IMG/VR virus record: IMGVR_UViG_3300039066_000010
Length of the DNA stretch: 64,000 nucleotides
Reading direction: 5' to 3' (one strand)
Source: a virus
Both the position numbers and the translations under genes were made by a program. Below, piece after piece: positions 1,634-62,756 of this stretch. The notes under the pieces are model-generated. The model searched no databases. It was given only the letters and a program-made list of their open reading frames with translations, and was not told the origin of the DNA. Positions within the stretch are counted from its first letter, which is position 1. Each line of letters opens with the position of its first letter.

Positions 1634-1637
1634 TTAG

Positions 1638-1720: not shown

Positions 1721-1725
1721 TTTTG

Positions 1726-1795: not shown

Positions 1796-1797
1796 AG

Positions 1798-1869: not shown

Positions 1870-1927
1870 TTTTAAACATATAAGTCTTCTTTTTTATAAT
1901 CTTTTATATTCACAATAAAAATTTTAG

Positions 1928-2002
1928 TACTGCCTACGAGATTCGAACTCGCATTATCCACGTTGAAAGTGTGGTGTCCTATTCCAATTAGACGAAAGCA
2001 GC
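1928..2002 (-). tRNA. tRNA-Glu (UUC)
   Basis: D-arm GTCT/GGAC, anticodon loop CTTTCAA, T-arm GCGAG-TTCGAAT-CTCGT; acceptor with two G-U pairs. Confidence 0.6.
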
Positions 2003-2012
2003 TTTTAATTAG

Positions 2013-2082
2013 TTGGGGATGTAGGATTCGAACCTCGCCTCGCACGTCCAAGGTGCGGATGCTAACCATTACAACACATCCC
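2013..2082 (-). tRNA. tRNA-Pro (UGG)
   Basis: Acceptor GGGGATG/CATCCCC, anticodon stem CGCAC/GTGCG loop CTTGGAC, T-loop TTCGAAT. Confidence 0.7.
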
Positions 2083-2273
2083 CAAAATAAAAAAGACCCC
2101 ATATTACTATGAGGTCTAAAAATGAAATATAAATACGTTACAAACTTTAAGTTTGATTAGTATGTACACACTTAGCCTCAAAAACCATTTCCGGTTCTTG
2201 TTGTAAACGTTCGATATGTAGTACTAATCTTTTCATGGGTACAAAGTTATAAAATTTTTTAATACACTCCTAA

Positions 2274-4993: not shown

Positions 4994-5139
4994 TTGTTAA
5001 TGTTAAGTTACTTTTTAAACTTTTCAGTTTATTTATTACAGCATCTATTTTAGATGCACTTTTCTTATCCTCATCAACAATAGATTCGTATATTTCATCT
5101 ATATCCTTGTGGATGTCATCGGTAAGTTTGAAAACGGTA

Positions 5140-19159: not shown

Positions 19160-19396
19160 TTACCCTTCGATTAATTTTTTAAAGTTTGTTGTGATTTTAG
19201 AGTTTTTCTCAGAGATTTCACGTAATTCTTTTTGTTCGATTTCACGTTCAAGAATTTCGTTTGCCAACTGATTGTTTCTCTTATCTACTTCTTGTTGCAC
19301 TTTGTCCAAAGCGTTTAAAGTTTTGTTGAAAGCATCTAAAATAGTAGATGTTCTTTTTGACAGCGTCGTGGCTGTCTTTTTAAGCGGGTTTTGCAT
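19160..19396 (-). CDS. Hypothetical coiled-coil protein
   Basis: ORF, heptad-like E/K/L pattern. Confidence 0.35.
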   Translation of the reverse strand: MQNPLKKTATTLSKRTSTILDAFNKTLNALDKVQQEVDKRNNQLANEILEREIEQKELREISEKNSKITTNFKKLIEG

Positions 19397-20948
19397 AATT
19401 ATTAATATTAGTTGATACTCTATTTTTGATTTGTTCTAATTTCTCAGTGTTATGAAAAATACCATCTTGGTAGATGACCCTTAACCATCCTATTTCAGAA
19501 CTTCTTCTGCTAACTTGGTCTATCAATTTGTAAGTTCCGTCTTCATCGTTCCCAACACATAATAAACCTTTTGCTGATTTTTTAGTTCCGGAATCAGTGA
19601 TTGGGTCTTTAAAGATTGGTGTGTCAACCCCTTTAATAGTCACGTTTGTTGCTTTCATAGCAAATCCGAAACTGTCTCTGGTGTTAAACTGATAAGTGTA
19701 AGAGCCAATTCCTAAAACAACGTTTGTTGCAGCAAATCCTTTTACCTCTAATCTTTCAAGAATATCCTGAGCAATTGTGATAGTGATACTATCCCCGTAA
19801 ATTACACCAATATGAGGGTCAAGAACTTTATATCCTTCATCAGATGTTGTTCCACCAAACACTTCGTAAAGTAATTCTACTACACCTTTAATAACAGTTT
19901 CTGGATATTCGATATCTCCTTCTAACATTAACCATTTTCCATCTTCATCTTGATAACAGTCTCCTTTGAACCCACAAATAATATCTGCAGGATTACCAGA
20001 GTCAGGTCTTATAACAACCTTCCCATCTCTAGCCATGATTTCATCTTTCAATCTTGGTAAGATATTAGTACAAACATGCCATAAATCCCATGTATCACTA
20101 ACGATTGATACAACACCTGTAGGATAAGCTTTCAAAATTCTCCTGAATGTTTCAATTTCATCCTCAGCACCACCGGCACACATCACTGAATGTTCAGATG
20201 CTGGAACACCCATAGCAATTACACCTTCTTGATGGTAATATTTTCTACCACCTTTGATTGCTGAAATACTGTCACTACCTGTAAAACTTAACAAGTGACC
20301 CAACCCAGATGTTATTGTTGTGAAAGGGTCTAAACCTCTAGCTGAGAAATCGTGCCCCATAAACGGTACAAACCCTATGTTTTTAGAGTCTGTCTTCTTA
20401 ACAAAGAATTCAAATAACTTTCTGTATTCGAAGGCGATGGTAGCGGATGTCATCGGTTTCCACAACAATTGAGACAGTAAAGTTTCAAGGTAATTAGGCA
20501 ACCAATAGAAATCTTTATTAGTGTTTTCAATAGTCAACACTGGGACACCCATCGGTACTAAATCACCTTCTGGTAAAGACTTTACAATAATAGGTAAATA
20601 ACCTAAATCATGTAATGCTTCAAAGTGTGACACATCGTAAGCAGTTCCTAAGTAATCACTGAATTCTTGTTCAAGTTCAGCTAAAACATCTGCTTTTCTT
20701 CTACTGAAAAAAGACCTTTTAAACATATCATGGATATAAATTACAGCCATTTGTTGTCCGAAGGAAACGATTGAATCAATAGATTTCCCATCTATACCTT
20801 TTGGAGCATGTTTGTTACTTCTTGGTGTGAAGTTGGAGTAAACATTCTCTGTACCTTCCGGATACATTTTGTGATGACTCAGTTTATAACCGTCTGTTAA
20901 AAATAATGGATTCATATAAATATTTGATTTAATTTCTACCTTTTTCAT
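19380..20948 (-). CDS. nadV: Nicotinamide phosphoribosyltransferase (NAMPT)
   Basis: N-terminal LTDGYKLSHHKMYPEGTENVYSNFTPR matches NAMPT signature; ~520 aa. Confidence 0.85.
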   Translation of the reverse strand: MKKVEIKSNIYMNPLFLTDGYKLSHHKMYPEGTENVYSNFTPRSNKHAPKGIDGKSIDSIVSFGQQMAVIYIHDMFKRSFFSRRKADVLAELEQEFSDYLGTAYDVSHFEALHDLGYLPIIVKSLPEGDLVPMGVPVLTIENTNKDFYWLPNYLETLLSQLLWKPMTSATIAFEYRKLFEFFVKKTDSKNIGFVPFMGHDFSARGLDPFTTITSGLGHLLSFTGSDSISAIKGGRKYYHQEGVIAMGVPASEHSVMCAGGAEDEIETFRRILKAYPTGVVSIVSDTWDLWHVCTNILPRLKDEIMARDGKVVIRPDSGNPADIICGFKGDCYQDEDGKWLMLEGDIEYPETVIKGVVELLYEVFGGTTSDEGYKVLDPHIGVIYGDSITITIAQDILERLEVKGFAATNVVLGIGSYTYQFNTRDSFGFAMKATNVTIKGVDTPIFKDPITDSGTKKSAKGLLCVGNDEDGTYKLIDQVSRRSSEIGWLRVIYQDGIFHNTEKLEQIKNRVSTNINNYAKPA

Positions 20949-21714
20949 CTGGATAAAGTGTCATAACTTTATCTGATTGAAATACTTCCCCTGTTTCGAT
21001 GTTTTGCATACTTAGTTTTCCGTTCCAACCAGCTCCTGTGTCTACATTTGTAATGTTTACAGCAGTCATAGGATAATCTTTACCCCAGTTTGTTGTTTGA
21101 GTGTGACCTATGTAAACATGAGATACTTCCTCTGCTATTTTATACTTCATCTTAGATGATTCAGCACTTAAAGCTCCCATCCATAAGTCTCTATCCCACC
21201 AGTAAATATCGTCTTTGTACTGTTCGTTTAAAGGGTAGTGTCTGTTGAAACCACCGTGGATAAACAATCTTTTCTTATCATCCTTGTAACTTCTTACCTG
21301 ATTCTTAAAGAATTGTAAGTGTGTTTGAGGGATGTCAGAGTTCAATAAGTTAGTGGTGTAATAATTCTCTATCCTCCCGTTGTTTCCATACGGATGAGAG
21401 TGATATTTAAAATGTTCACCTAAAACATTCACCCCATAACTTTTAGCTGTAGCTAAACCACCTTGCTCCCATCTTACTGGGTGAATCCCAAACATTAAAA
21501 ACTCTAGAAACCAATGGTCATGATTACCATGAATATCGATTCTATTCTTAACCTTTAGTAATTCTTCGACACATTCGTAAGACTGACCCCATCCATCAAC
21601 AATGTCTCCGATGGTGATTAACTTATCATTTTCATAGTCGAACCCAGAACGTTCAAGAACTTGTTTTAATGCCTTAAATGCACCGTGGATGTCTCCAATT
21701 ACGAAGGTTCTCAT
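20929..21714 (-). CDS. Calcineurin-like metallophosphoesterase (PPP-family Ser/Thr phosphatase-like)
   Basis: GDIHG, GDIVDGWG, GNHD motifs in order. Confidence 0.75.
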   Translation of the reverse strand: MRTFVIGDIHGAFKALKQVLERSGFDYENDKLITIGDIVDGWGQSYECVEELLKVKNRIDIHGNHDHWFLEFLMFGIHPVRWEQGGLATAKSYGVNVLGEHFKYHSHPYGNNGRIENYYTTNLLNSDIPQTHLQFFKNQVRSYKDDKKRLFIHGGFNRHYPLNEQYKDDIYWWDRDLWMGALSAESSKMKYKIAEEVSHVYIGHTQTTNWGKDYPMTAVNITNVDTGAGWNGKLSMQNIETGEVFQSDKVMTLYPDEKGRN

Positions 21715-36750: not shown

Positions 36751-36829
36751 AGGAGTATTGAGCAATTGGTGGCTCAGCGGTCTGTAAAATCGTGGTGAAA
36801 ACATGTGGGTTCGAGTCCCTCTACTCCTA
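36751..36829 (+). tRNA. tRNA-Tyr (GUA), long variable arm
   Basis: Acceptor AGGAGTA/TACTCCT, D-arm GAGC/GCTC, anticodon loop CTGTAAA, 11-nt variable arm, T-loop TTCGAGT. Confidence 0.7.
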
Positions 36830-36834
36830 CAACA

Positions 36835-36923
36835 TAGAAAGTGAAGCAGTCCATTGGTGGGCGACTGGTCTTGAAAATCAGGTCTCGTTAAATCGGGCGG
36901 GGTTCGACTCCTCCTCTTTCTAC
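36835..36923 (+). tRNA. tRNA-Ser (UGA), type II
   Basis: Acceptor TAGAAAG/CTTTCTA, anticodon loop CTTGAAA, long variable arm CTCG-TTAAAT-CGGG, T-loop TTCGACT; close to E. coli Ser(UGA) layout. Confidence 0.65.
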
Positions 36924-36927
36924 AATT

Positions 36928-37014
36928 AGAAAAGTGTCAGAGTGGCTGATTGAGCATCCCTGCTAAGGATGTGGGGTATAAACACTCCCGTGGGTTCGAA
37001 TCCCACCTTTTCTG
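36928..37014 (+). tRNA. tRNA-Ser (GCU), type II
   Basis: Acceptor AGAAAAG/CTTTTCT, anticodon stem CATCC/GGATG loop CTGCTAA, long variable arm, T-arm GTGGG-TTCGAAT-CCCAC. Confidence 0.65.
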
Positions 37015-37019
37015 CAAAA

Positions 37020-37093
37020 TGCTTTGTCGTAATAATGGTTTAATACGTCCGACTGTTAATCGGGTTATAAGGGTTCAAATCCCTTCAAAGCAG
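37020..37093 (+). tRNA. tRNA-Asn (GUU)
   Basis: Acceptor TGCTTTG/CAAAGCA, anticodon stem TCCGA/TCGGG loop CTGTTAA, T-arm AAGGG-TTCAAAT-CCCTT. Confidence 0.6.
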
Positions 37094-37098
37094 CAAAT

Positions 37099-37169
37099 AC
37101 GTCAGTAGTGTAACGGTAACACGATGGTCTCCAAAACCATTAATAAAAGTTCGAACCTTTTCTGATGTG
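37099..37169 (+). tRNA. tRNA-Trp (CCA)
   Basis: Acceptor ACGTCAG/CTGATGT, D-arm GTGT/ACAC, anticodon stem ATGGT/ACCAT loop CTCCAAA, T-arm AAAAG-TTCGAAC-CTTTT. Confidence 0.7.
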
Positions 37170-37216
37170 CAAACAATAGATTTTATTTATATACCTATAG
37201 ACAAAATCTATTATAT

Positions 37217-37290
37217 GGGGATGAAGCTAACTTTGGTAGAAGCGGTAGTCTGAAAAGCTACAGGAGTTGGTTCAAATCCAACTATCCCCA
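37217..37290 (+). tRNA. tRNA-Phe (GAA)
   Basis: Acceptor GGGGATG/TATCCCC, anticodon stem GTAGT/GCTAC loop CTGAAAA, T-arm GTTGG-TTCAAAT-CCAAC. Confidence 0.7.
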
Positions 37291-37295
37291 CAACT

Positions 37296-37376
37296 GCTCT
37301 TATGTCCGAGAGGTTAGGTGGACGCTTGCAACCCGTCCCACACAGGTTCGAATCCTGTTAAGAGTTCAAAAACATA
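37296..37376 (+). tRNA. tRNA with irregular anticodon arm (possible Cys GCA; GGACG/CGTCC stem would give 9-nt loop CTTGCAACC)
   Basis: Acceptor GCTCTTA/TAAGAGT, T-arm ACAGG-TTCGAAT-CCTGT, Ser-like D region TCCGAGAGGTTAGG. Confidence 0.4.
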
Positions 37377-37401: not shown

Positions 37402-37426
37402 TATAAATTTTTAAAACATTAACACA

Positions 37427-39271
37427 ATGACGAAAATACAAGAAAGCGTTAACGATAACACTAGATTCTTTAATGTAAACGGTTTAGATTACCCTAAAAA
37501 TCAATACATTTACAAATACAGAAATGAAGTCGTAAATGATGGAAATGTAGACACAACAGTTATAGAAATCGCTATAGTTGATAAATACACTGGAGAATTA
37601 TTAATATCTTATAGCAGAGTTGAGGATTATGTTAACGCATTTGATGTAGAATACACATCAATTGAAACCCTACTTGCGGATTTATCTATATTACTGGGTT
37701 TTAATTGGGGCGGGACAGCCCCAACAGGCGACCTATCTACTTTTAATTCATTAAGTAGTAATACATTTAATCATTTAAACAATCCAAAGCCTATACTTAG
37801 TGCAGGTGTTTGGGATGCTAATATTAGAGAGATAGGTAATATTCTTAGAATCTCAGATACTCAATTAGCTTTAGTATATACAGGAACATTAATCCCATAC
37901 ACAGAAGGAGTTAATGAATATATTGGATTAGCAACATCTAATGATAATGGATTAACTTGGACTAAAGGAGGAGCTTTAGGGGATGGTAAAATTACAAGTA
38001 CAAATTCAGAAGACCCTTATTTAGTTAAAAACCCAGCTAATGGGCTTTACCATTTATATGCTGAGAGAAAAGTGGTTGCGGGTACAAAACATGATGGAAT
38101 TGAACTATGGACTTCAAGTGATTTAATTAATTTTACTTCACAAGGAATTGTTTTACAAAAAGATGTTTTAATACCATCAGAGACACAAGATGTATCTTCC
38201 CCAACAGTTATGATAGAAAATAACATTTGGTATTTATTTTATGAAGGTAGGTCAAACCCTAGTAATGGAGGTTCTGTAGCATTAGCTATTTCTTCTGACG
38301 GTATCACATTTACAAAACAAACACCTAATCCGTTAATTTATGGTATGCAATGGGACACTATTGCTCCTAAAGTAAGTTGGGCTACTCATTTAGTTCCTGA
38401 TGATATAATTAAAATAGATAACGATTATTACCTTACTGCCCACGCTTATAATGGGGTTATATTCGCAACAGGTTTATTTACATCAACTGATTTATTAAAT
38501 TGGACAGATGTTCTAGGAACTTGGGTTACTAAGTATGACAACAACGATAGCTTAGGAGATGGACTGATGTTTTTTAATGATGGTTTTGGTAATTTTAAAG
38601 GTCTTATTAAATCTTCTAGTACTCAACTAGCTATTGTAGATTTAACTTATAACCCTTATCAAAAAGAATTGTTTACAGCAAGAACAACAGCTACAGGTAT
38701 TAGTAATATGATAAGTGGTAATAGAAGTGAAACAGTTTATGCAAATATAACAGCTGATAGAACTTTTACAATGTCTAAAAATTACATTAGTAATTCAGGA
38801 GTTGTAAAAACTATTATAAATAATTCTGCATTTGTTTTAACAATAACTCCTGCTACAGATGTATTATTCAATGGTTTGTCAACATCTATTGTCTTACAAG
38901 CAAATGAAATTGTAACACTAGTTTGTACAGGTATCAACACTTGGAATTTTTACACATTAAGTCAAGCTATACCAAGTGCTCAAACTTTAACGCAAAGAAG
39001 TACTTTAACAAGTGGTACAGAGACTATTGCAAATACAAGTAGAAATACAGTCTTAATACATGAAGCTGGGGCAACTACAGCTTTAACTGTAAATTTACCC
39101 GCAACTCCTGTAAACAATCAAACAGTAAATATGATGTCAGTTGGTGGTATTGTTGGGTTAACCGTAGCTACCCCTGTTGGTTCAATAGTTGGTAACATAA
39201 CAACACTACCAGCATTAGGAAATGCTAGATTTATGTGGGTAAACTCCCAAAACAAATGGTATAAAATCTAA
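37427..39271 (+). CDS. Tail fibre/spike protein with putative beta-propeller glycoside-hydrolase-like central domain
   Basis: 614 aa; N-terminal 75 aa shared with next gene; DPYLVKNPANGLYHLYAE, WYLFYEGRS resemble GH32/43-type propeller motifs. Confidence 0.5.
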   Translation: MTKIQESVNDNTRFFNVNGLDYPKNQYIYKYRNEVVNDGNVDTTVIEIAIVDKYTGELLISYSRVEDYVNAFDVEYTSIETLLADLSILLGFNWGGTAPTGDLSTFNSLSSNTFNHLNNPKPILSAGVWDANIREIGNILRISDTQLALVYTGTLIPYTEGVNEYIGLATSNDNGLTWTKGGALGDGKITSTNSEDPYLVKNPANGLYHLYAERKVVAGTKHDGIELWTSSDLINFTSQGIVLQKDVLIPSETQDVSSPTVMIENNIWYLFYEGRSNPSNGGSVALAISSDGITFTKQTPNPLIYGMQWDTIAPKVSWATHLVPDDIIKIDNDYYLTAHAYNGVIFATGLFTSTDLLNWTDVLGTWVTKYDNNDSLGDGLMFFNDGFGNFKGLIKSSSTQLAIVDLTYNPYQKELFTARTTATGISNMISGNRSETVYANITADRTFTMSKNYISNSGVVKTIINNSAFVLTITPATDVLFNGLSTSIVLQANEIVTLVCTGINTWNFYTLSQAIPSAQTLTQRSTLTSGTETIANTSRNTVLIHEAGATTALTVNLPATPVNNQTVNMMSVGGIVGLTVATPVGSIVGNITTLPALGNARFMWVNSQNKWYKI

Positions 39272-46127: not shown

Positions 46128-46370
46128 ATGAATCTAATTAGAAAAATATCAGTTGGGTCAAACTACCCAGACAAGGTTCTACATTACCAAGTTGATAAAC
46201 CCGTGAGAATGGGAGCAGAAGAAAAAAATGTAAAACGTATTGAAGAATCATTCGAAGAAGGAAGTAAGGTATATAAGATTTTCGTAGAAGGGGAAATGAA
46301 TTCCGCATTGTTATGGAAGAAAATTATAAACGTTCCTGTAGTAGTTGAATATTTAATAGGGTTCGATTAA
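46128..46370 (+). CDS. Hypothetical protein
   Basis: ORF only. Confidence 0.4.
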   Translation: MNLIRKISVGSNYPDKVLHYQVDKPVRMGAEEKNVKRIEESFEEGSKVYKIFVEGEMNSALLWKKIINVPVVVEYLIGFD

Positions 46371-46930
46371 TGATAACTTTAAACTGCCTAGTAGTAGAAG
46401 TTGAATCAGAATATGAAAATGAAAGAGAGGGTATCGTTAGTAATATTGATTATAACGATACCTTTTTTATAACTAGAAAAGCTACAGTTGTATCAGCCCC
46501 TAAGTTCACGATTTTAAAAAAAGGAGATACAGTTGTGTGTCATCATAATATATTCAGGAAAAAAGGGAGCACATCCGGAACTATTATACATAGTGCTTTT
46601 CATATCGAAGACAACTTATATCATGTACCTCTAGACGAGGTTTTCATGTTTAAAAGAGATGGTGAAGATTGGGTATCACTATCACCGTTTTGTTTTGTTA
46701 CCCCAATAAAAGATGAAAACTTTAATCATTTATCTGAAACAGAAAAACAATTCGAAACACATAAAGGTTTTAAAAAGAATAGAGGGATATTAGCTTATCC
46801 TTGTAAGGAGTTAGAGCAGCATAAAAACAAAGAAGTTATATTCAGCAATGATTCCGAATATGAATTTTTAATAGACGGTGTACTATATTACAAAATGAAA
46901 TTAAATGATATTTTAATATTTATTGAATGA
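46370..46930 (+). CDS. Hypothetical protein
   Basis: ORF only. Confidence 0.4.
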   Translation: MITLNCLVVEVESEYENEREGIVSNIDYNDTFFITRKATVVSAPKFTILKKGDTVVCHHNIFRKKGSTSGTIIHSAFHIEDNLYHVPLDEVFMFKRDGEDWVSLSPFCFVTPIKDENFNHLSETEKQFETHKGFKKNRGILAYPCKELEQHKNKEVIFSNDSEYEFLIDGVLYYKMKLNDILIFIE

Positions 46931-49900
46931 AAGGATTAAGTAGCGATATAGAATCAGCGATTGAAACAATTTTAGAAGGACTTAATTACGAGTTTGACAT
47001 AAATATTTTAGATGATTCTAAAATGAAGGCAACAATGGATTCAAAAGTTGCTTCCTTCAACACAGCAAAAAAACTATTAGATAGATGGGGTAATTCGATG
47101 AATAGTCCCGCACAAGAAAAATTAGAAACATATGTCGAAAGATTGATTATAGCTGGTGAGTCAGCTATTGTCAATTTAAGGACAGCTCTAGGTAAGACCA
47201 TCAACTATGATGGTATGAAAGAGGAAAAGTTCACAGCTGCTGTAAAAGCTAAACCATTAATCTTAGATGCTATCCTAGATTTGGACGTAGGGGTTAATGA
47301 GTTAAGATTACAATTAGATGCTGGGAATGTAAACCTAGGGGAAAAAGAATTTAAAACAGGGTATCCAGAAAAGTTTGCCAACGGTGAATTTTACCCATTG
47401 AAAAAATATCATAAGAATTGGTTAGACAAAGAGAACGATGCTATAATAATCGACCCTCATTGCACACTGGGTGAAATCATAGAGATATCTGGATTAAGAA
47501 TACGCCTACCTAAAGTACCGGAAGACCAAACTAAAATATTATTTTCAGAGTTCCCTAAAGAAGAACAATACTGGAGAAGACAAGAACAACCGAAGGGAAT
47601 CACGCCAGATTCTGTAGAAGCTTTTGACGCATATATCGTTGAAGAATACAGAAGAATTAGAGAAGGTATATGGTTCATGAATAATGGAGTTCCTGTTTAT
47701 TTGACTGGAAATATGTACTTCGCCTTACAATATTGTGAAATGATTGACAACGGTGATTTCATGAATTTCCGTATCGCTCAGTTAGAGATGTTCTATCATT
47801 TAGAAGCTTGTATAGTAGATAAAAGATGTTTAGGTCAAATATTCTTGAAATCTCGTCGTACAGGATTTACATACATCATCTTAGCTATTTTATTAAAATT
47901 AGCAATCACCACTAAAAATGGTAAATTCGGGATGACATCTAAATCTGGGGATGACGTTGTGGAAGCATTTAGTAAATTCTCGTACATGTTCTTAAATTTA
48001 CCATTCTGGTTAAGACCGGTTGTAAAAGGTAAAGAGGATTCTTTAACGTCTTTAGAATTTGGTAAACCATCAAACTTATCTAAAGAGGCTAAAAAGAAAA
48101 GAGATAGTAACACCGGTGATTATTTGAATACAATCATTGACTGGAGACCTACTAAAAATGGTTCTTATGACTCAGTAAAACTTAATGGTTATTTAGGGGA
48201 TGAGTGTTTTGAATTTGGTACTAAAATACGAATGAGTAACACATCTCTTAGAAACATAGAGGATATACAAATAGGAGAATCTGTTTTAACAGGTTCTGGG
48301 AAGTCAGCGATAGTTGTAGATAAAGTAGAAGGTGTAGATGAAATGTATAAAGTCACATCTAAATACGGGGTAGATTTTGTAATAAACTCCGCACATAGAT
48401 TACTAATTGAATTTAAAAACCAAAAGAAAAAAGAACATAACGGAGTTAGAGAATTAACTCCTGAAGAATATTTACAGCTTACAGATTATCAAAAAAGAAC
48501 CACACATTTAATAAAATGTTCAGTTATAAAAAACCCAGAACAAAATCTAGAGATAGACCCATATATCTTTGGATGCTGGTTGGGAGACGGGTACTCTAAA
48601 GATAGTCAATTCATAATTAACCATAAAAAAGACCCTGAAATTTTAGAAGAGGTTTTGAAATATGCAGTAATTAATGATTTTGACACATCAGAAGTAGAAA
48701 GAACAGAGACATATGTAAAAATCAGATTGCTAGATAAATTATCCACAGGTGCTAATCAAAGTACAGGTAGTAAACATAAGTTTATCAAGAGTTTGAAACA
48801 ATTAAACGTATACGGAGATAAAAGAATACCTGAGAAATATTTAAACTCTTCAGAGGAGCAACGTTTAGAGATACTTTCCGGAATAATCGATACAGATGGA
48901 TATGTTAAAAGAGGAACAGCTTATATATCGATGAGTAGATTAGAACTAATGGAGGATATCTATAATTTAGTGAAATCATTGTCTATACCATGTTCTGAAA
49001 TAAAACATAGAATATCTAATTTTGAAACCGATGTTTATTCACTTTCTTTAAATATGAACTCTGATATTAAATGTAGAGTTAGTAGAAAAATACATAAAGA
49101 AAGTAGAAAAAACAGCAGAAGAGAGTCCTTTAATGTTGAATACATAGGGGTTGGTAGTTATTGTGGTATAACATTAGACTCTGAAAACACGGTAGTTCTT
49201 CAAGATTACACAGTGCAGAAAAACTGCGGGAAATGGGAGCGTCCAATGGATTACATTACCCACTTAGGTCAGATTAGACCAACAATGATGCCGTCTGGTA
49301 AAGTTGTAGGTAAAGCCTTTATCGGTTCTACCATGGGGTCAATGGTTAAAGGGGGTCAACAATTCAAAGAATTGATAAATGGTTCTTACGTTCACCTTAG
49401 AAATGAAATCACAGGTAAAACACCTACAGGTCTTTATTTCCACTTCTTACCGGCTCAAAATAACATGGAGCAGTTTACAGATAAATATGGGACATGTTGG
49501 ACAACAGCTCCTCCAAAAGGAACTTTAAATGTAGAGGGTGATGAAATAAAAATAGGGTCTTTAGATTATTTAATAGCTACAGAAGAGCAATTAAAAACAA
49601 TGGATGATAAAGCTTTGAATGAGCAATATCGTACATACCCTAGAACTGTAGAACATGCAATGCGTGATGAAGCAACAGAAACTGTTTTCAACATCACTAA
49701 GATATACCAACAGTTAGAGAACAATGAGAAATTAGGTGAGAACACTTTATTCTCTCAAGGTAATTTTGATTGGGAGAATGGTATAAAAGACGGGAAGGTT
49801 GAATGGAATCCTAACCCTAAAGGTAGGTTCAAATTATCTTGGATTCCTAGTGAAGCAGATAATACATTATCTTTGCGTAATAATGTTAGAGATGTAAATG

Positions 49901-50622
49901 GTAAATTCTACCCTTTAAATGATAATGTTGGGGCTTTAGGTTGTGACCCGTTCACATTAAAATCTACACATGGTAAAGGTTCTAAAGGAGCAATACATGG
50001 TAAAACATTACATTTCCCAGAAGGAAACGCACCATCAAATACATTCTTTTTAGAATATGTTGCTCGTCCATCAGATGAGACAATTTTCTTTGAAGACGTT
50101 ATCATGGCTTGTCGTTTTTACGGGATGCCGGTTTTAGTAGAGTCAAACAGAATTGACTTACTTAGACACATGAGGAATAGAGGTTATAGAGGTTTCTCTA
50201 TAAACCGTTTAGATAGACCTTTCAAATCATTAAATGAGAATGAAAGAGAATACGGTGGACAAGTGATGTCTGGTAAAGATATTATCGATTCACATATGAA
50301 CGCTATCGGGTCATGGATTACAGATTACGTTGGGGAAAGTACAAAAGAACAAATCAGACCTGTTGGTGAGATTGGGAACTTCGCTTTCCAAGAAACATTA
50401 AAAGACTGGTTAGGATTTAACCCAGATAACAGAACAGACTATGATGCAACCATTTCAAGTGGTTTAGCGATTATGGCTTGTCAAAAAGACAAATATAGAG
50501 GTAAAAAAGTTAAACGAGTTGAAAACAAAGCGGTTAACTTCTTCCCTAAGTACAGCAATAACGGAGACTTCGGCTCTAGAATCATAACACAAAAAACAGA
50601 TAAATCAGATGAATTGGAATAA
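46927..50622 (+). CDS. Terminase large subunit containing an intein
   Basis: Deviant P-loop KSRRTGFT, Walker B LNGYLGDE; long C-terminal nuclease-type region; order terminase-portal-scaffold-capsid. Confidence 0.6.
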   Translation: MKGLSSDIESAIETILEGLNYEFDINILDDSKMKATMDSKVASFNTAKKLLDRWGNSMNSPAQEKLETYVERLIIAGESAIVNLRTALGKTINYDGMKEEKFTAAVKAKPLILDAILDLDVGVNELRLQLDAGNVNLGEKEFKTGYPEKFANGEFYPLKKYHKNWLDKENDAIIIDPHCTLGEIIEISGLRIRLPKVPEDQTKILFSEFPKEEQYWRRQEQPKGITPDSVEAFDAYIVEEYRRIREGIWFMNNGVPVYLTGNMYFALQYCEMIDNGDFMNFRIAQLEMFYHLEACIVDKRCLGQIFLKSRRTGFTYIILAILLKLAITTKNGKFGMTSKSGDDVVEAFSKFSYMFLNLPFWLRPVVKGKEDSLTSLEFGKPSNLSKEAKKKRDSNTGDYLNTIIDWRPTKNGSYDSVKLNGYLGDECFEFGTKIRMSNTSLRNIEDIQIGESVLTGSGKSAIVVDKVEGVDEMYKVTSKYGVDFVINSAHRLLIEFKNQKKKEHNGVRELTPEEYLQLTDYQKRTTHLIKCSVIKNPEQNLEIDPYIFGCWLGDGYSKDSQFIINHKKDPEILEEVLKYAVINDFDTSEVERTETYVKIRLLDKLSTGANQSTGSKHKFIKSLKQLNVYGDKRIPEKYLNSSEEQRLEILSGIIDTDGYVKRGTAYISMSRLELMEDIYNLVKSLSIPCSEIKHRISNFETDVYSLSLNMNSDIKCRVSRKIHKESRKNSRRESFNVEYIGVGSYCGITLDSENTVVLQDYTVQKNCGKWERPMDYITHLGQIRPTMMPSGKVVGKAFIGSTMGSMVKGGQQFKELINGSYVHLRNEITGKTPTGLYFHFLPAQNNMEQFTDKYGTCWTTAPPKGTLNVEGDEIKIGSLDYLIATEEQLKTMDDKALNEQYRTYPRTVEHAMRDEATETVFNITKIYQQLENNEKLGENTLFSQGNFDWENGIKDGKVEWNPNPKGRFKLSWIPSEADNTLSLRNNVRDVNGKFYPLNDNVGALGCDPFTLKSTHGKGSKGAIHGKTLHFPEGNAPSNTFFLEYVARPSDETIFFEDVIMACRFYGMPVLVESNRIDLLRHMRNRGYRGFSINRLDRPFKSLNENEREYGGQVMSGKDIIDSHMNAIGSWITDYVGESTKEQIRPVGEIGNFAFQETLKDWLGFNPDNRTDYDATISSGLAIMACQKDKYRGKKVKRVENKAVNFFPKYSNNGDFGSRIITQKTDKSDELE
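48205..49224 (+). mobile_element. Intein (340 aa) with LAGLIDADG homing endonuclease domain, inserted after Walker B glutamate of terminase
   Basis: Starts C(FEFGTKIRM) after LGDE, contains GCWLGDGYS and GIIDTDGYV, ends ...VVLQDYTVQKN followed by C+1. Confidence 0.55.
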
Positions 50623-58040: not shown

Positions 58041-58306
58041 TTGAAACAGGAACATCACACAATAATCACATTTTATGTGTAATCGTTCCGGAGGAAGAAG
58101 TGGTTAATGGATTATATAAACCTGCTGCCATCAAGGAAAAAAGGTATAAAAAATTAAGAGTTGTAAAACAGCTCGACGAGGATGTTTTAAAAGATGATAT
58201 ATTATATGTCCCTTTACATTCAGGAACAGAGGTTGAAACACCGGAAGGAGTTTACACCATCGCAAATAAAAGAGATATTTTATTCTTAGATAGAGATGCA
58301 AAGTAA
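58022..58306 (+). CDS. Hypothetical protein
   Basis: ORF only. Confidence 0.35.
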   Translation: MDKRSLIETGTSHNNHILCVIVPEEEVVNGLYKPAAIKEKRYKKLRVVKQLDEDVLKDDILYVPLHSGTEVETPEGVYTIANKRDILFLDRDAK

Positions 58307-61300
58307 AAACACATTCTTACAAAGTAAAATGAACAAGGACGCAGACGAAAGACTGCTTCCTGAAGGAGAATACCCTCACGCAGAAAACGTGAGGGTTATT
58401 GATTCTGGGGATGCTCATGTAGGAGCTATAGAGAACGTACTGGGTAACGAAGCTTTGACAGATTTTAATCTGATTAACGCTGTTACTCTAGGAGGGTGTG
58501 TAGATACATCAAATCAAAAGATATATTTCTTTACTACTTCTCAAACAAAAGATTTAGTCATAGAATACGATGATTTCAATAAAGTTACAACTGTTTTATT
58601 AGAGTCAACTAAACCGAACAGTGTTTTAAACTTTAACCCTAATTATTTAATTACAGGGGTGAATAAAATAATCAACGAGGACAGCGATAAGGATTTATTG
58701 ATTTGGACAGATGATTACAATGAGCCTCGTATGATTAATATCGAAAGAGCTAAGTCATACACTGTTGACGGATTCATCGACGATGATATCAACGTTATTA
58801 AAAAACCACCTTTTTACCCACCTTCTATCACACCTTTTGTATCAAGTGATTTAGCCTCTAATAATCTTAAGGATAAGTTTTTAGCTTTCTCATACAGGTA
58901 TAAATATTTAGATGGAGGGTATAGTGCTTTATCACCATTTTCTTATTATAACTTCACACCTTCTCCGTTTAAAGTTGATTATGACATATTAGCGAACGAC
59001 GCAATGGTTAATACTTATAACTCTGTAGTTATAGATTTTAACACCGGTGATAAAAGAGTAATCGGGATAGATATTGTTTTCAAAGAGTCTAATTCAAACA
59101 CTGTTTATTTAATTCAGTCTTTCGATAAAAAGAAAGAGAACTGGTTAAATAATACAAATGTGACATATAATTTCTCAAATAGTAAATTATACAAAGCTTT
59201 ACCAGAGACTGAATTATCAAGACTTTTTGATAATGTCCCAAGAAAAGCTAAGGCTCAGGATATTGTTGGTAATAGAATCGTATATGGTAATTTCTTAGAG
59301 AATTACGATATAAAAGATGCTAAAGGTGAAGATATCAAAATCGATTACACGGTAGGACTGAATACTGAGGTCTTAACAGAGATAGATGTCCCAACATCTG
59401 TTGGAAGTTTACCTACTTTCACAGATAACTTATTGACGTTTGATTTAACAGGGGTTGAATTAAAAAAGGATTTAACTATTACTTTTTACATCAGGCTTAC
59501 AGAAAGAACTTATAATTCCGGTTCTTTCAATAGTTCTTTGAGTTATACATTAAAAGAAGATTTCGCTACAGTTGCTGACTTAAAAACATCTTTGGATTTT
59601 ATAAATTTTATCCAAGTAGTTGCTACAAACATCTTTACAACTACTTATAATGTTCCAAGTCCTCCTGCAGGAAGTACAGTTGACAGCATCACACCTTTTA
59701 ATATAGAGACTACAATAGGGGATATCATTACAATTAAAGCACCTATTGTTAATTACCTTATAACAGGTGTTCCTTCGATTGTTCAGTCTAAATGGGGATT
59801 TATATCAACCCAGACAAATGTGACTTATAGATTAGAGGCTTCTATCGGAAGTTTAAAATCAAACAGAAGTAATGAAGTAGGGATAATATATTCAGATGAG
59901 TCAGGTAGAAGTACTACAGTTTTAACCAGTGTTGATAATACAGTTAATATTCCACACGCTAATGCTATAACTCAGAATAAATTTAACGTTACTATAAACA
60001 ACCCAGCTCCGAAATGGGCTACAAGATTTAAATTAGCGGTTAAAGAAAACAAAGAGAGATATCATGAAATATACGTTAGTACCTTTTATCAAGACGGTGT
60101 TTACAGATGGTTGAAATTAGAAGGAGATAATAAAAGTAAAGTTAAAGAGGGTGATATTCTAATTATTAAAACAGACCTTAGCGGATTTGTCCCAACTCTA
60201 ACAACGGTTACAGCTTTAGAAGTCGATATCAAACCAGAAAACTTTATATCAACTAATGCAGGAGGTGAACTAGCCGGAAGATACGTAAAAATAAAACCTC
60301 CAGTAGGTATAAATATAAACGTATCAGCAACACCAGCTTATACTGTAGAGGGTAATGCTCGAAGCAGTGGTGGGGGATTCTCAATGATACTTAAATATTT
60401 TCCGCAACCTATAACACAAGGTAGTAGAATACAAATAGCATTGAGTAATATAAAATACGGTAGTAACGGAGGAGCTTATTATTATGATAAGACTTTTACA
60501 GTTGGTGCTGATTATGACAACATTGCAGACTGGTACGCAGTTGAAGTAGTAGCTGTTTCACCATTCACTATTATATGGGGGATAGACGGTGGAGGATTAT
60601 ATGCAGCAGTACCTAATATTTTAAACGGTAACGGACAACATGATTCTTATATCAATGGTGCAATAACAGTTACACCTAATAATGGATTAATTGTACTTGA
60701 AACTACACCTGATGAAAGATTAGGGGATTTCTACTTCGAATCATCTGAGGTTTTTGACATAGTGGATGGATTGCATCAAGGTAATTTACAGAATCAAACA
60801 TCAATTGTTCCAGCAATAGTAGAGTTAGATTATTACAATTGTTTTGCTTTTGGTAACGGGGTGGAAAGTAACGCTTATAAGAGTGGTTTTACAACTAATT
60901 ACTTAAGTATGGACTTACGTCCTACGGCTACTAATTTAGAACCATATAAAGAAAACAGAAGATTCGCTGATTTAACTTATAGTGGGATTTACAATAACTC
61001 TACTAATATCAACGAGTTAAATAATTTCAACCTGTCAACAGCTAATTTCAAAGATGACATCGAGAAAAAATACGGTGGGATTCAGAAGATAGTAGCTAGA
61101 GATACAGATTTAGTAGTTTTCCAAGAAGATAAAGTATCTAAGGTTTTATACGGTAAAGCTGTTTTAAACAATGTAGACGGTACTGGAAACGTTGGTAAAA
61201 TTAAAGATGTACTAGGTCAGCAAATAACATACGATGGTGAATACGGGATAAGTCAAAACCCAGAGAGTTTTGCGTTCTTCGGTAACAGAATGTACTTTAC

Positions 61301-62756
61301 AGATGTTAAAAGAGGAACACCTTTACGTTTATCAAATGATGGGATTTCTGAGATTAACGATGGGATGAGTAATTACTTTAAGGATAATTACAGAGACGGG
61401 TTGTTTGTCAAGAAAGTTGGGGGATACGACCCATGTAACGACCAATATATCATAGTTGATGATAAAATAAACACTTATAAAGATTCTACGTTAGGATGTG
61501 GAGTAAATAAGTACTTCAAAGATTTCATAGGTGTTGCAGATGTATTCATTAATTTTAAAGGGTTGAGTGGTAATAGCACATTAAATTACACCATTGCATC
61601 CGGAACGATAACAATCAAACAGGAAAATGAAGGAGTCGTAACAACAGTTGGGACATTTAATTCAACTGGGTCAAGCCCTATAAATGTAGAGATTACAGAT
61701 TCTTATAATAAGAGAATAATTATAGAGTCTTCATCAGATGCGACATTTATTATTAATTCATCTTGTATTGTTGGGGAAAACCTTAAAATTGTCAATATCG
61801 TTTTAAACGATAACGATGATGTAGGTTTAACATTAAACTCAAGATTTAAATGGTATGATGCGATTTCACAATCGTCATATAAGACTTATAACACACCGTT
61901 CAGTCCTAGTTTAATAACTCAATTTGATGCAATAAATGGATTTAAAGGGGTTGGTAATATACCAGCTGAGGATGCAACGGTTATCATGGAGAGTGTTAAA
62001 ACAGTAGGTGACACAGGAGAGTTGATAAGTTTAGATAAAATGAAATATTTAATCACAACAAATGATTATGATGAGTCAGATATCGCAACAATATTAACAG
62101 ATTCTACATTATTATCTACAACGATTAACACTAACCCTTCCGGAGACATTGTTAAAAGTGCAAACTTTACATTGAACACTTTACCTAATGAGATTTTATA
62201 TTTGATTTGGGATTATAGAACAGCGGTTGAAGCGGTTGATGACGAGTCTGAAGTAGCGGAATATGAATCTGCAAACATTAATGTAATGAGTAATGATTTG
62301 GGTATTTTAACTAATTACACACCAGTGATAGTGACAACTCCTAGTTCAGGTACAGCTATTGTGAATCCAGATAAAACTATAACCTACACATCAACAGGTG
62401 GTACAGGAACTGATACATTCACATATGAATTAAACAATGGGGATGTTACAAGTAATATAGCAACGGTGAATATCAATATAGGTGCGGCAATGATTATATC
62501 TACTTACTTTAGTGATGTGAGTACACCAACATCTAATTGTGATGGTGCTGGGATTATATCATATCCTTTATTATTACATTACGAAAAGATAACAGAATCT
62601 TACCCTTACTTTGAACTAGGTCAAGTTTTATATACAGATGTAGAATTAACAACTCCTTTTGTAGGTACTGATGATTGGTATCATATAGACCCTAGCTTAT
62701 CAGTAAGAGTAAATATCACAGGTGTCATAGTAGAAATAGATAATTGTACAATATAA
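58296..62756 (+). CDS. Very large (1486 aa) virion structural protein (tail/baseplate-associated candidate)
   Basis: Size, beta-rich composition, position in structural block. Confidence 0.45.
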   Translation: MQSKNTFLQSKMNKDADERLLPEGEYPHAENVRVIDSGDAHVGAIENVLGNEALTDFNLINAVTLGGCVDTSNQKIYFFTTSQTKDLVIEYDDFNKVTTVLLESTKPNSVLNFNPNYLITGVNKIINEDSDKDLLIWTDDYNEPRMINIERAKSYTVDGFIDDDINVIKKPPFYPPSITPFVSSDLASNNLKDKFLAFSYRYKYLDGGYSALSPFSYYNFTPSPFKVDYDILANDAMVNTYNSVVIDFNTGDKRVIGIDIVFKESNSNTVYLIQSFDKKKENWLNNTNVTYNFSNSKLYKALPETELSRLFDNVPRKAKAQDIVGNRIVYGNFLENYDIKDAKGEDIKIDYTVGLNTEVLTEIDVPTSVGSLPTFTDNLLTFDLTGVELKKDLTITFYIRLTERTYNSGSFNSSLSYTLKEDFATVADLKTSLDFINFIQVVATNIFTTTYNVPSPPAGSTVDSITPFNIETTIGDIITIKAPIVNYLITGVPSIVQSKWGFISTQTNVTYRLEASIGSLKSNRSNEVGIIYSDESGRSTTVLTSVDNTVNIPHANAITQNKFNVTINNPAPKWATRFKLAVKENKERYHEIYVSTFYQDGVYRWLKLEGDNKSKVKEGDILIIKTDLSGFVPTLTTVTALEVDIKPENFISTNAGGELAGRYVKIKPPVGININVSATPAYTVEGNARSSGGGFSMILKYFPQPITQGSRIQIALSNIKYGSNGGAYYYDKTFTVGADYDNIADWYAVEVVAVSPFTIIWGIDGGGLYAAVPNILNGNGQHDSYINGAITVTPNNGLIVLETTPDERLGDFYFESSEVFDIVDGLHQGNLQNQTSIVPAIVELDYYNCFAFGNGVESNAYKSGFTTNYLSMDLRPTATNLEPYKENRRFADLTYSGIYNNSTNINELNNFNLSTANFKDDIEKKYGGIQKIVARDTDLVVFQEDKVSKVLYGKAVLNNVDGTGNVGKIKDVLGQQITYDGEYGISQNPESFAFFGNRMYFTDVKRGTPLRLSNDGISEINDGMSNYFKDNYRDGLFVKKVGGYDPCNDQYIIVDDKINTYKDSTLGCGVNKYFKDFIGVADVFINFKGLSGNSTLNYTIASGTITIKQENEGVVTTVGTFNSTGSSPINVEITDSYNKRIIIESSSDATFIINSSCIVGENLKIVNIVLNDNDDVGLTLNSRFKWYDAISQSSYKTYNTPFSPSLITQFDAINGFKGVGNIPAEDATVIMESVKTVGDTGELISLDKMKYLITTNDYDESDIATILTDSTLLSTTINTNPSGDIVKSANFTLNTLPNEILYLIWDYRTAVEAVDDESEVAEYESANINVMSNDLGILTNYTPVIVTTPSSGTAIVNPDKTITYTSTGGTGTDTFTYELNNGDVTSNIATVNINIGAAMIISTYFSDVSTPTSNCDGAGIISYPLLLHYEKITESYPYFELGQVLYTDVELTTPFVGTDDWYHIDPSLSVRVNITGVIVEIDNCTI

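What the first reader, a model, noticed from the sequence alone, without database searches (positions are those of the whole stretch)
46927..50622. Terminase large subunit interrupted by a LAGLIDADG intein immediately after the Walker B glutamate
The 1231-aa ORF has a P-loop (KSRRTGFT) and Walker B (LNGYLGDE). Directly after the E begins C-FEFGTKIRM (intein block A-like), then two LAGLIDADG motifs (GCWLGDGYS, GIIDTDGYV), and the element ends ...DYTVQKN followed by Cys. Excising 48205-49224 leaves a conventional ~890-aa terminase. The C-terminal splice junction is K-N and not the usual H-N, which would be a less common intein variant.
Basis: partly seen in the sequence, partly recalled or inferred. 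Interest (0 to 1): 0.55.

Follow-up and report, generated by a model that had tools for sequence, protein, structure and literature searches.

The report
Intein inside a phage terminase gene
The DNA-packaging enzyme gene of this marine Bacteroidota-type phage is interrupted, right after a catalytic residue, by a self-splicing protein element (an intein) that carries its own homing nuclease; this is real and cleanly delimited, but it is a common kind of element.

Summary
ORF 46927-50622 (+) encodes 1231 aa. Residues 427-766 (nt 48205-49224) are a 340-aa class 1 intein with a PI-SceI-like Hint domain and a double-motif LAGLIDADG endonuclease. It sits between the Walker B Glu426 and Cys767.

- **Intein identity:** Pfam, a PDB profile match to PI-SceI (E=3e-32) and an AlphaFold model (pLDDT 88.7; Foldseek PI-SceI E=1e-27) agree.
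- **Sporadic distribution:** 99 of the 120 closest metagenomic homologues lack the segment precisely (…GDE|[A/S/C]xKW…). The other 21 carry an intein at the same site.
- **Host protein:** the 891-aa host has no Pfam or PDB sequence match. It is PHROG 6681 TerL, and a model of an 85%-identical intein-less homologue matches only large terminases (T4 gp17, E=2e-12).
- **The K-N end:** this is real and typical of this insertion-site lineage. At this site 38 of 44 sampled inteins lack the penultimate His, against 0 of 79 related P-loop-site inteins.

Terminase inteins, a Walker B insertion site and non-His penultimate residues are all published. This is a new member of a known kind. Splicing and homing are inferred, not shown.

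The parts
46927..50622 (+). Terminase large subunit precursor ORF (1231 aa, 140.5 kDa), stop codon included
   Evidence: The identical protein P0001 is in the metagenome database.
46927..48204 (+). N-extein (aa 1-426): helical N-terminal extension plus the first part of the ATPase domain, up to the Walker B Glu
47848..47871 (+). Deviant Walker A / P-loop, KSRRTGFT (aa 308-315)
   Evidence: K308, S309, R310, R311, T312, G313 and T315 are invariant in 30 homologues. In the AF2 model the motif lies between strand 303-307 and helix 314-328.
48181..48204 (+). Walker B, LNGYLGDE (aa 419-426). Glu426 is the -1 residue of the intein.
   Evidence: D425 and E426 are invariant. They end strand 421-425 in the AF2 model of P0002. 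The model's fold matches T4 gp17.
48205..49224 (+). Intein (340 aa, 39.1 kDa), class 1, PI-SceI-like
48205..48207 (+). Cys1 of the intein (block A nucleophile)
   Evidence: Invariant in the 20-sequence family alignment. It aligns to Cys1 of PI-SceI.
48376..48405 (+). Block B, FVINSAHRLL. His64 is B:10. Asn61 is at B:7, as in PI-SceI.
   Evidence: H64 and L66 are invariant. B:10 is His in 155 of 155 relatives, and B:7 is mostly Asn.
48571..48597 (+). LAGLIDADG motif 1 (GCWLGDGYS; catalytic Asp128 of the intein)
   Evidence: G127, D128 and G129 are invariant. The motif aligns to LLGLWIGDGLS of PI-SceI.
48820..48822 (+). Lys206 of the intein, in the conserved NK-IP motif of the endonuclease domain
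   Evidence: K206 and P209 are invariant. The residue aligns with the GVKNIP lysine of PI-SceI.
48880..48906 (+). LAGLIDADG motif 2 (GIIDTDGYV; catalytic Asp231 of the intein)
   Evidence: D229, D231 and G232 are invariant. The motif aligns to LAGLIDSDGYV of PI-SceI. Pfam Hom_end and LAGLIDADG_3 match here.
49153..49224 (+). Blocks F and G, GSYCGITLDSENTVVLQDYTVQKN. F:4 is Gly. There is no His at the F:13 position, where this copy has a 4-aa deletion relative to all family members. G:6 is Lys339 and G:7 is Asn340.
49225..49227 (+). +1 Cys767, the first residue of the C-extein and the nucleophile for trans-thioesterification
   Evidence: Cys in 20 of 21 intein-bearing homologues and Ser in one. 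Intein-less alleles have A, S, C, V, I or Y here.
49225..50619 (+). C-extein (aa 767-1231): the rest of the ATPase domain, including a candidate coupling motif IGST at 49321-49332, and the nuclease domain

Best explanation
The gene encodes a 140.5-kDa terminase large-subunit precursor. A 340-aa class 1 intein is inserted between the Walker B catalytic Glu426 and Cys767.

Inferred pathway after translation:
1. An N-S acyl shift at Glu426-Cys427.
2. Trans-thioesterification to Cys767.
3. Cyclization of Asn766, which releases the intein.
4. An S-N shift, which gives the mature 891-aa (101.4 kDa) terminase reading …YLGDE-CGKWERP….

The insertion splits the ATPase core directly after the Walker B strand. 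Packaging activity should therefore require splicing.

The free 39-kDa intein is a PI-SceI-like monomeric LAGLIDADG endonuclease with both catalytic Asp residues. It most likely cuts intein-less alleles of this terminase in co-infecting related phages, around …GGTTATTTAGGGGATGAG|TGCGGGAAATGG…. Repair using the intein-bearing copy then spreads the element (homing).

The intein belongs to a lineage specific to this site in PHROG 6681 terminases. That lineage has largely replaced the penultimate His (G:6) with Met or Lys. It usually has Arg or Lys where PI-SceI has the block F His.

What is shown: the domain identity, the exact boundaries, conservation of the catalytic residues, sporadic presence and absence among homologues, and the terminase fold of the host. 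What is inferred: splicing, endonuclease activity and homing.
For: **Boundaries and motifs.**

**Intein identity.** Pfam Hint and homing-endonuclease hits are above cut-off. PI-SceI is the best PDB relative, by single sequence (E=3e-10) and by family profile (E=2.8e-32). The alignments cover Cys1, both LAGLIDADG Asp residues and the C-terminal …N|C. The AF2 intein model has pLDDT 88.7, and Foldseek matches PI-SceI 1ef0 at E=1.3e-27 with TM 0.80. I-DmoI matches the nuclease part.

**Sporadic distribution.** 21 of the 120 closest homologues have an intein at the identical site, and 99 lack it without any gap. The gene of the intein-less P0002 aligns gaplessly across the junction at 77% nt identity.

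**Conserved catalytic set.** C1, H64, D128, K206, D229, D231 and N340 are invariant, although the other inteins are only 35-46% identical to the window's.

**Signs of mobility.**
- The window intein is at most 46% identical to any other. Its extein is up to 85% identical to intein-less genes, and the 15 nearest extein relatives are all intein-less.
- For the window, intein and extein identities are uncorrelated (rho -0.24).
- P0004 and P0113 have 55% identical inteins in 49% identical exteins.
- GC3 is lower in the intein (0.218 against about 0.287).

**Host is a terminase.**

**Gene is maintained.** It is identical in three samples.

**Precedent.** TerL inteins splice and home in mycobacteriophages, including at a Walker B site, and non-His penultimate residues (Gly, Lys, Ser) occur there (PMC5050341). 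About 5% of functional inteins lack His at G:6, and neither G:6 nor F:13 His is universally required (PMC4031507).
Against: No experiment shows splicing or DNA cleavage.

This copy lacks both histidines usually credited with assisting Asn cyclization: G:6 is Lys, and there is no His at F:13. It also has a 4-aa deletion in the block F loop that removes the Arg/Lys present in most lineage members. Its splicing could therefore be slow or conditional.

No intein-less allele of this same strain was found by exact junction search, so recent homing is not documented.

The endonuclease target site is inferred only from the insertion point.
Confidence: 0.9

Rival explanations
1. The intein still splices, but its endonuclease no longer homes. 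It would then be a fixed, vertically inherited passenger late in the homing cycle.
For: The window intein is a deep singleton lineage, at most 46% identical to any other. No empty-site allele of the same strain was found. A decayed endonuclease exists in the family: P0012 has a 48-aa deletion and DSDRY.
Against: Both LAGLIDADG Asp residues, the conserved Lys206 and the whole nuclease fold are intact and modelled with high confidence. The nearest extein relatives are all intein-less, which is the pattern expected of an element still subject to gain and loss.
Confidence: 0.3
2. The intein is splicing-defective, so the gene is a dead terminase in a defective or decaying phage genome.
For: There is no His at G:6 or F:13. 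There is also a unique 4-aa deletion in the block F loop.
Against: The 3696-nt ORF is uninterrupted. All invariant catalytic residues are kept. The sequence is identical in three independent samples. It sits in an intact packaging and structural module. 38 of 44 inteins at this site lack the His at G:6, so that feature is compatible with viable phages. Functional inteins without these histidines are documented (PMC4031507; PMC5050341).
Confidence: 0.05
3. The 340 residues are an ordinary, non-excised accessory domain of this terminase: a domesticated Hint/LAGLIDADG module that stays in the mature protein.
For: Nothing specific. It remains possible only because splicing has not been shown.
Against: 99 of the 120 closest homologues lack it exactly, with no compensating sequence. 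The splice-junction residues C1, N340 and +1 Cys/Ser are conserved. The insertion sits directly after the Walker B Glu inside the ATPase core, where a 39-kDa insertion should disrupt the active site.
Confidence: 0.02
4. The insertion is a self-splicing group I or II intron whose homing-endonuclease ORF happens to be in frame with the exons.
For: Phage structural and packaging genes often carry such introns (PMC7886860).
Against: The insertion begins and ends with Hint-domain splicing blocks that are split around the nuclease, which is the hallmark of an intein. The reading frame is continuous across both junctions. There are no nested ORFs of 60 aa or more on either strand inside the insertion.
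Confidence: 0.01

Closest known systems
PI-SceI, the Saccharomyces cerevisiae VMA1 intein (PDB 1vde, 1ef0, 1lws)
   Same: Best sequence and structural relative. It shares the same architecture: a Hint splicing domain split by a double-motif LAGLIDADG nuclease, Pfam Hom_end_hint plus Hom_end. It also shares Cys1, Asn at B:7, His at B:10, Gly at F:4, a terminal Asn and a +1 Cys.
   Different: The window intein is 340 aa against 454 aa, with smaller insertions in the splicing and DNA-recognition part. PI-SceI ends …VVVHN and has a block F His, whereas this intein ends …TVQKN and has no block F His. The host is a phage terminase and not a V-ATPase subunit. Structural alignment shows about 18% identity.
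Mycobacteriophage terminase large-subunit inteins (Kelley et al. 2016, PMC5050341), including TerL1-e in the Walker B motif
   Same: These are inteins in the ATPase domain of TerL at catalytic motifs. They are shown experimentally to splice, and some to cleave intein-less alleles. The penultimate His is often replaced, by Gly, Lys or Ser.
   Different: The phage group and terminase family differ (Actinobacteria phages with Terminase_1/6, against the Bacteroidota-phage PHROG 6681 family). The paper groups TerL1-e with class 3 inteins, whereas this one is class 1, with Cys1 and Gly at F:4. The exact residue of the TerL1-e insertion was not compared here.
TerL inteins of crAss-like phages, 'Hint-Hop type' (Yutin et al. 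2021, PMC7886860)
   Same: Phages of Bacteroidota in which TerL 'typically contains an intein' of the Hint plus Hom_end kind. The window also encodes a crAss muzzle-like protein (PF25731).
   Different: Those are human-gut Delta and Zeta group Crassvirales. The nearest cultured relatives of this window are Baltic Flavobacterium (Elemovirus, 50% TerL identity) and Cellulophaga (Pachyviridae, 32%) phages, whose deposited genomes are intein-less. Insertion sites were not compared.
P-loop-site inteins of phage terminases and helicases (Aeromonas pIS4-A, Salmonella 65FD, Vibrio VCO139, Klebsiella MEW1)
   Same: They belong to the same PI-SceI-like intein superfamily, at 24-26% identity to the window intein.
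   Different: They are inserted in the Walker A motif and not after Walker B, and all end …THN. In the wider sample, 79 of 79 P-loop-site relatives keep the penultimate His.

Membership tests
Intein, class 1 | Hint-fold splicing domain split around an optional endonuclease | tested here: met
   Pfam PF05203 E=1.2e-13. The AF2 model matches PI-SceI at TM 0.80, E=1e-27, and Prp8 inteins match the Hint part.
Intein, class 1 | N-terminal nucleophile (Cys or Ser at position 1) | tested here: met
   Cys427 follows Glu426 directly. It is invariant in the family.
Intein, class 1 | Block B His (B:10) with a polar residue at B:7 | tested here: met
   In INSAH, His64 is invariant. B:7 is Asn, as in PI-SceI and in most of 155 relatives.
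Intein, class 1 | C-terminal Asn (G:7) | tested here: met
   Asn766 is invariant. It is Asn in 135 of 135 full-length relatives.
Intein, class 1 | Penultimate His (G:6). This is typical and not obligatory: about 5% of functional inteins differ (PMC4031507). | tested here: not met
   The residue is Lys765. 0 of 21 close family members have His, and 38 of 44 at this site lack it.
Intein, class 1 | +1 Cys, Ser or Thr on the C-extein | tested here: met
   Cys767. It is Cys in 20 of 21 and Ser in 1 of 21 intein-bearing homologues.
Intein, class 1 | In-frame insertion at a conserved host site that is precisely absent from homologues | tested here: met
   99 of 120 homologues lack it without a gap. 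At the DNA level, the P0002 gene aligns gaplessly across the junction.
Intein, class 1 | Protein splicing: ligated exteins plus free intein | not testable with these tools
   This needs expression with SDS-PAGE or mass spectrometry.
Intein, class 3 (as the paper groups mycobacteriophage TerL1-e) | No position-1 nucleophile; WCT triplet with Cys at F:4 | tested here: not met
   Position 1 is Cys and F:4 is Gly. It is therefore not class 3.
LAGLIDADG homing endonuclease, monomeric double-motif type | Two LAGLIDADG helices, each with the catalytic acidic residue | tested here: met
   In GCWLGDGYS and GIIDTDGYV, D128 and D231 are invariant. They align to the PI-SceI motifs.
LAGLIDADG homing endonuclease, monomeric double-motif type | Nuclease fold | tested here: met
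   Foldseek matches to PI-SceI, I-DmoI and I-Tsp061I. Pfam PF05204 and PF14528 also match.
LAGLIDADG homing endonuclease, monomeric double-motif type | Site-specific cleavage of the intein-less allele | not testable with these tools
   This needs a cleavage assay on a synthetic …GGTTATTTAGGGGATGAG|TGCGGGAAATGG… site.
Terminase large subunit | Sequence membership in a terminase family | tested here: met
   phrog_6681 E=1.4e-157, with weaker hits to phrog_2 and phrog_5989. No Pfam terminase model and no PDB sequence matched, even with a 30-sequence profile.
Terminase large subunit | ASCE ATPase plus RNase H-like nuclease fold | tested here: met
   An AF2 model of the 85%-identical intein-less homologue P0002 (pLDDT 82.5) has 25 Foldseek hits at E<=1e-3. 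All are large terminases (T4 gp17, HK97, T7, D6E, P74-26). The test used the homologue, not the spliced window protein itself.
Terminase large subunit | Walker A and Walker B motifs in the expected structural positions | tested here: met
   KSRRTGFT lies between strand 303-307 and helix 314-328. The DE ends strand 421-425. All are invariant in 30 homologues.
Terminase large subunit | Position in a packaging module next to the portal gene | tested here: met
   The portal (phrog_6547, E=6e-172) starts at 50609 and overlaps the terminase stop.

The most novel reading that the evidence does not exclude
The inteins that occupy this Walker B site of PHROG 6681 terminases form a lineage that has dispensed with both histidines normally assigned to Asn cyclization. 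38 of 44 have Met, Lys or another non-His residue at G:6, and most have Arg or Lys at the F:13 position. They may use a different catalytic arrangement, possibly involving the basic residue, the conserved …EDYT… strand, or the invariant extein Glu(-1) and Lys(+3). Splicing might then be slow or conditional, and so act as a post-translational timer or switch for DNA packaging. The window's copy, which has also lost the F:13 basic residue through a 4-aa deletion but has Lys at G:6, would be a natural test case.
Probability: 0.2. Interest if true: 0.45.

Novelty: new member of a known kind. Interest (0 to 1): 0.3.

Why it matters
**Annotation.** The gene should be recorded as an intein-containing terminase large subunit precursor, with a mature product of 891 aa. 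In the nearest deposited phages the intein-less homologue is still labelled 'hypothetical protein', and the family is invisible to Pfam.

**Intein biology.** The finding adds one more example of the well-known preference of inteins for ATPase catalytic motifs of terminases. It also gives a clean, well-sampled set for study: 44 inteins at one site, mostly without the penultimate His, against 79 P-loop-site relatives that all keep it. This set could be used to study how Asn cyclization is catalysed without the canonical histidines. It could also supply compact non-canonical inteins for protein engineering.

None of this changes current understanding.

Tried and rejected
- **Extein against PDB sequences.** Neither the single sequence nor a 30-sequence profile found a terminase. 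Pfam on the intein-less homologue gave nothing. Terminase identity therefore had to be established through PHROGs and structure prediction.
- **pIS4-A tblastn extension.** A tblastn match to the Aeromonas pIS4-A terminase extended into the C-extein and suggested a shared insertion site. Inspection showed that this intein sits in the P-loop (GGRG|C…THN|SGKT), so the idea was rejected.
- **Other copies in the window.** A family-HMM search of all 252 stop-to-stop ORFs of 50 aa or more found only the one intein.
- **Same strain without the intein.** Exact searches for the spliced junction gave 0 hits in viral contigs and in metagenome contigs.
- **Occupied junction.** The exact occupied junction gave 0 hits in viral contigs. 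An earlier attempt used a mistyped pattern and is void.
- **Co-conversion of flanking extein.** Identity to P0002 is flat at 0.65-0.82 along the gene, with nothing distinctive at the junction, so there is no evidence either way.
- **Side-chain contacts around Asn340.** I could not inspect these because model coordinates are not exposed.

Full report
**1. Observation**

The ORF listing and translate show a single uninterrupted ORF at 46927..50622 (+) of 1231 aa.
- KSRRTGFT at aa 308-315
- LNGYLGDE at aa 419-426 (nt 48181-48204)
- Cys427 opening CFEFGTKIRM
- GCWLGDGYS at aa 549-557
- GIIDTDGYV at aa 652-660
- …DYTVQKN ending at aa 766, followed by Cys767

The segment 48205-49224 is exactly 340 codons. 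Removing it leaves 891 aa. No ORF of 60 aa or more lies inside the segment on either strand. The same 3696-nt gene, with zero differences, is on contigs from two other samples (SRR1974497 and JGI 3300039097), so it is not an assembly artefact.

**2. The inserted segment is an intein with a homing endonuclease**

Several independent lines agree.
- Pfam places Hom_end_hint at aa 427-527 (E=1.2e-13), and Hom_end and LAGLIDADG_3 at aa 642-694. All are above the curated thresholds.
- Against PDB sequences the best relative is PI-SceI, the yeast VMA1 intein (E=3.4e-10). The alignment covers Cys1, both LAGLIDADG motifs (LLGLWIGDGLS against IFGCWLGDGYS; LAGLIDSDGYV against LSGIIDTDGYV), the GVKNIP lysine, and the C terminus (YYGITL…VVVHN|C against YCGITL…TVQKN|C).
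- A profile of 20 family members raises the PI-SceI match to E=2.8e-32.
- An AlphaFold model built on that alignment has mean pLDDT 88.7. Foldseek finds PI-SceI structures first (1ef0, E=1.3e-27, TM 0.80). The TliVMA and Prp8 inteins and I-DmoI follow, matching the sub-domains.

**3. The boundaries are exact and the element is sporadic**

The phage database contains only intein-less relatives of the host protein. These are 68 Flavobacterium 'elemo' phages (50% identity), 15 Cellulophaga phages, and a few others. Their sequences read YLGDE|ASKWEKP and ILDE|SGKYPP across the site.

In the metagenomic protein collection, 120 close homologues were retrieved.
- 99 lack the segment with no gap, reading …[GL]DE|[A/S/C/V/I/Y]xK[WI]….
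- 21 carry an intein of 298-346 aa at precisely the same position. All 21 begin with Cys and end with Asn, followed by Cys (20) or Ser (1).

At the DNA level, the gene of the closest intein-less homologue (P0002, 85% extein identity) aligns without a gap across the junction at 77% nucleotide identity. This disposes of the second refutation criterion, that homologues carry the region as an ordinary domain.

**4. The host is a terminase large subunit, but a divergent one**

The spliced sequence matches PHROG 6681 'terminase large subunit' at E=1.4e-157. No Pfam model matches. No PDB sequence matches either, even with a 30-sequence profile. The homologues in deposited phage genomes are annotated 'hypothetical protein'.

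I therefore modelled the intein-less homologue P0002 (pLDDT 82.5). All 25 Foldseek hits at E<=1e-3 are large terminases: T4 gp17 (E=2e-12), HK97, T7, D6E and P74-26.

In the model, KSRRTGFT is the loop between strand 303-307 and helix 314-328, which is a P-loop. The invariant Asp425-Glu426 end strand 421-425, which is Walker B.

The gene context fits. A portal gene (phrog_6547, E=6e-172) overlaps the terminase stop. Structural genes follow, including one with a crAss muzzle domain.

From memory, not tested here: the K-S-x-R-x-G-[FY]-[ST] form of Walker A resembles that of lambda gpA, and T4 gp17 also reads …IDE-C… after its Walker B.

**5. How it most likely works**

The catalytic inventory of a class 1 intein is complete apart from the penultimate His.
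- Cys1 is present.
- Block B reads N-x-x-H, with His64 invariant.
- F:4 is Gly, as in PI-SceI.
- The terminal residue is Asn340.
- The +1 residue is Cys.

The inferred pathway is the standard four steps, as reviewed in PMC4031507. The products would be a 101.4-kDa terminase with the junction …GDE-CGK… and a 39.1-kDa free intein.

The insertion directly follows the Walker B glutamate in the ATPase core. The precursor should therefore be inactive, and splicing should be obligatory for packaging. Kelley et al. drew the same inference for mycobacteriophage TerL inteins, which they showed to splice (PMC5050341).

The nuclease part keeps both catalytic Asp residues and the conserved Lys. All are invariant across a family whose members are only 35-46% identical to the window's intein, which argues for selection on nuclease function.

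Several observations fit a homing element. None of them proves current mobility.
- The 15 nearest extein relatives are all intein-less.
- For the window, intein identity does not track extein identity (rho=-0.24).
- P0004 and P0113 have 55% identical inteins in 49% identical terminases.
- One family member (P0012) has a decayed nuclease.
- The intein's GC3 is lower than that of its exteins (0.218 against 0.287).

**6. The K-N junction**

None of the 21 same-site inteins among close homologues has His at the penultimate position. They have Lys (10), Met (7), Leu (2), Gly (1) and Ser (1).

A profile search of 1.84 billion representative proteins found 25,839 relatives at E<=1e-3, which shows how common this intein type is. 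Among 155 full-length relatives analysed, including the 21 above:

| Insertion site | Penultimate His present |
|---|---|
| After a P-loop G-K | 79 of 79 |
| Other sites | 30 of 32 |
| After DE or EE (this site) | 6 of 44 |

At the DE/EE site the non-His residues are Met (20), Lys (11), Leu (3), and Phe, Arg, Ser and Gly (1 each). Eight hosts sampled from this site class were checked, and all are PHROG 6681 terminases with the intein at the same profile position, about 297-299.

The position aligned to the PI-SceI block F His (F:13) is Arg or Lys in 36 of 44 inteins at this site. The window's copy has a unique 4-aa deletion there (LDSEN----TVVLQDYTVQKN) and so has neither.

Related phage inteins in the P-loops of other terminases and helicases (pIS4-A, 65FD, VCO139, MEW1), and the one in Phrappuccino gp2, all end …THN.

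The literature already records three relevant points:
- About 5% of functional inteins lack His at G:6.
- Neither histidine is universally required (PMC4031507).
- Phage inteins often carry Gly, Lys or Ser at this position (PMC5050341).

The variant is therefore known. What is new here is only its tight association with this insertion site.

**7. Comparison with what is known, and novelty**

Terminase large subunits are the commonest intein hosts in actinobacteriophages: about 40% of mycobacteriophage inteins in PMC5050341, and 293 of 784 in the 2025 survey. Seven insertion sites are described, including one in Walker B, which the paper groups with class 3 inteins. TerL of Delta-group crAss-like phages 'typically contains an intein' of the Hint-Hop type (PMC7886860).

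The present element is class 1 and PI-SceI-like. It sits in a different terminase family, from marine or Baltic-type Bacteroidota phages whose cultured representatives are intein-less. I rate it a new member of a known kind.

The most novel reading that remains open is that this site-specific lineage uses a distinct catalytic solution for Asn cyclization, possibly tuned to regulate packaging. I give that about 0.2 probability.

**8. Limits**

Splicing, nuclease activity and the target site are inferred. The terminase fold was tested on an 85%-identical homologue, not on the spliced window protein. Model coordinates could not be inspected, so I cannot say which side chains surround Asn340. No empty-site allele of the same strain was found.

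Noticed in passing
window 610-2084 (-) and 36751-37367 (+): There are 17 tRNA genes in two clusters: 11 on the minus strand near the window start and 6 on the plus strand just before the late genes. This is a large set for a phage of about 60-75 kb.
   Followed up: no
window 9792-11351 (-) and 46370-46927 (+): The phage encodes a full-length GroEL/Cpn60 homologue (PF00118, E=7e-67). It also encodes a GroES-like protein (phrog_13932) immediately upstream of, and overlapping, the terminase start. The GroES-like gene is syntenic in Flavobacterium elemo and Cellulophaga phi18:3 phages.
   Followed up: partly
window 46927-47420 (aa 1-165 of the terminase): The terminase has an N-terminal extension of about 165 aa that is not covered by the PHROG profile. 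In the homologue model it is predicted as long helices (H4-20, H30-55, H63-89, H99-132). No separate small terminase subunit turned up among the neighbouring genes scanned, so this could be a fused TerS-like or oligomerisation module.
   Followed up: no
window 58290-62753 (+): A 1488-aa virion protein has an N-terminal crAss muzzle domain (PF25731, E=6e-15) and a C-terminal Big_9 domain. This suggests a crAss-like tail architecture in this marine-type phage.
   Followed up: no
window 19383-20960 (-): A nicotinamide/nicotinate phosphoribosyltransferase homologue is present (NAPRTase E=1.5e-36, plus NAMPT_N). It is an auxiliary NAD-salvage gene.
   Followed up: no
window 3084-4996 (-): Two adjacent ORFs (314 and 331 aa) both match RNase_H_2 and the PolB-type 3'-5' exonuclease domain. 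They could be a tandem duplication or a split gene.
   Followed up: no
window 49153-49224 (intein block F loop): This intein has a 4-aa deletion relative to all 20 other same-site family members. The deletion removes the acidic loop and the Arg/Lys at the position of the PI-SceI block F His.
   Followed up: partly
metagenomic homologues P0004 / P0113 and P0012: P0004 and P0113 carry 55%-identical inteins, both with atypical ends (…ISN, …TLN), in terminases only 49% identical. This is a likely intein transfer. P0012 has a 48-aa deletion in the nuclease domain and a mutated second LAGLIDADG motif (DSDRY), so it is a decaying copy.
   Followed up: partly
representative-search hits such as P0122, P0124, P0145, P0123, P0171: Many related proteins carry two or more inteins of this superfamily in one polypeptide, with up to 7 matched stretches. 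P0145 is a PHROG 6681 terminase with a second intein upstream of the Walker B one.
   Followed up: no
window 37415-39268 (+): A 618-aa protein has a glycoside hydrolase family 32/43-like beta-propeller domain and follows the second tRNA cluster. It may be a polysaccharide depolymerase or tail fibre enzyme.
   Followed up: no
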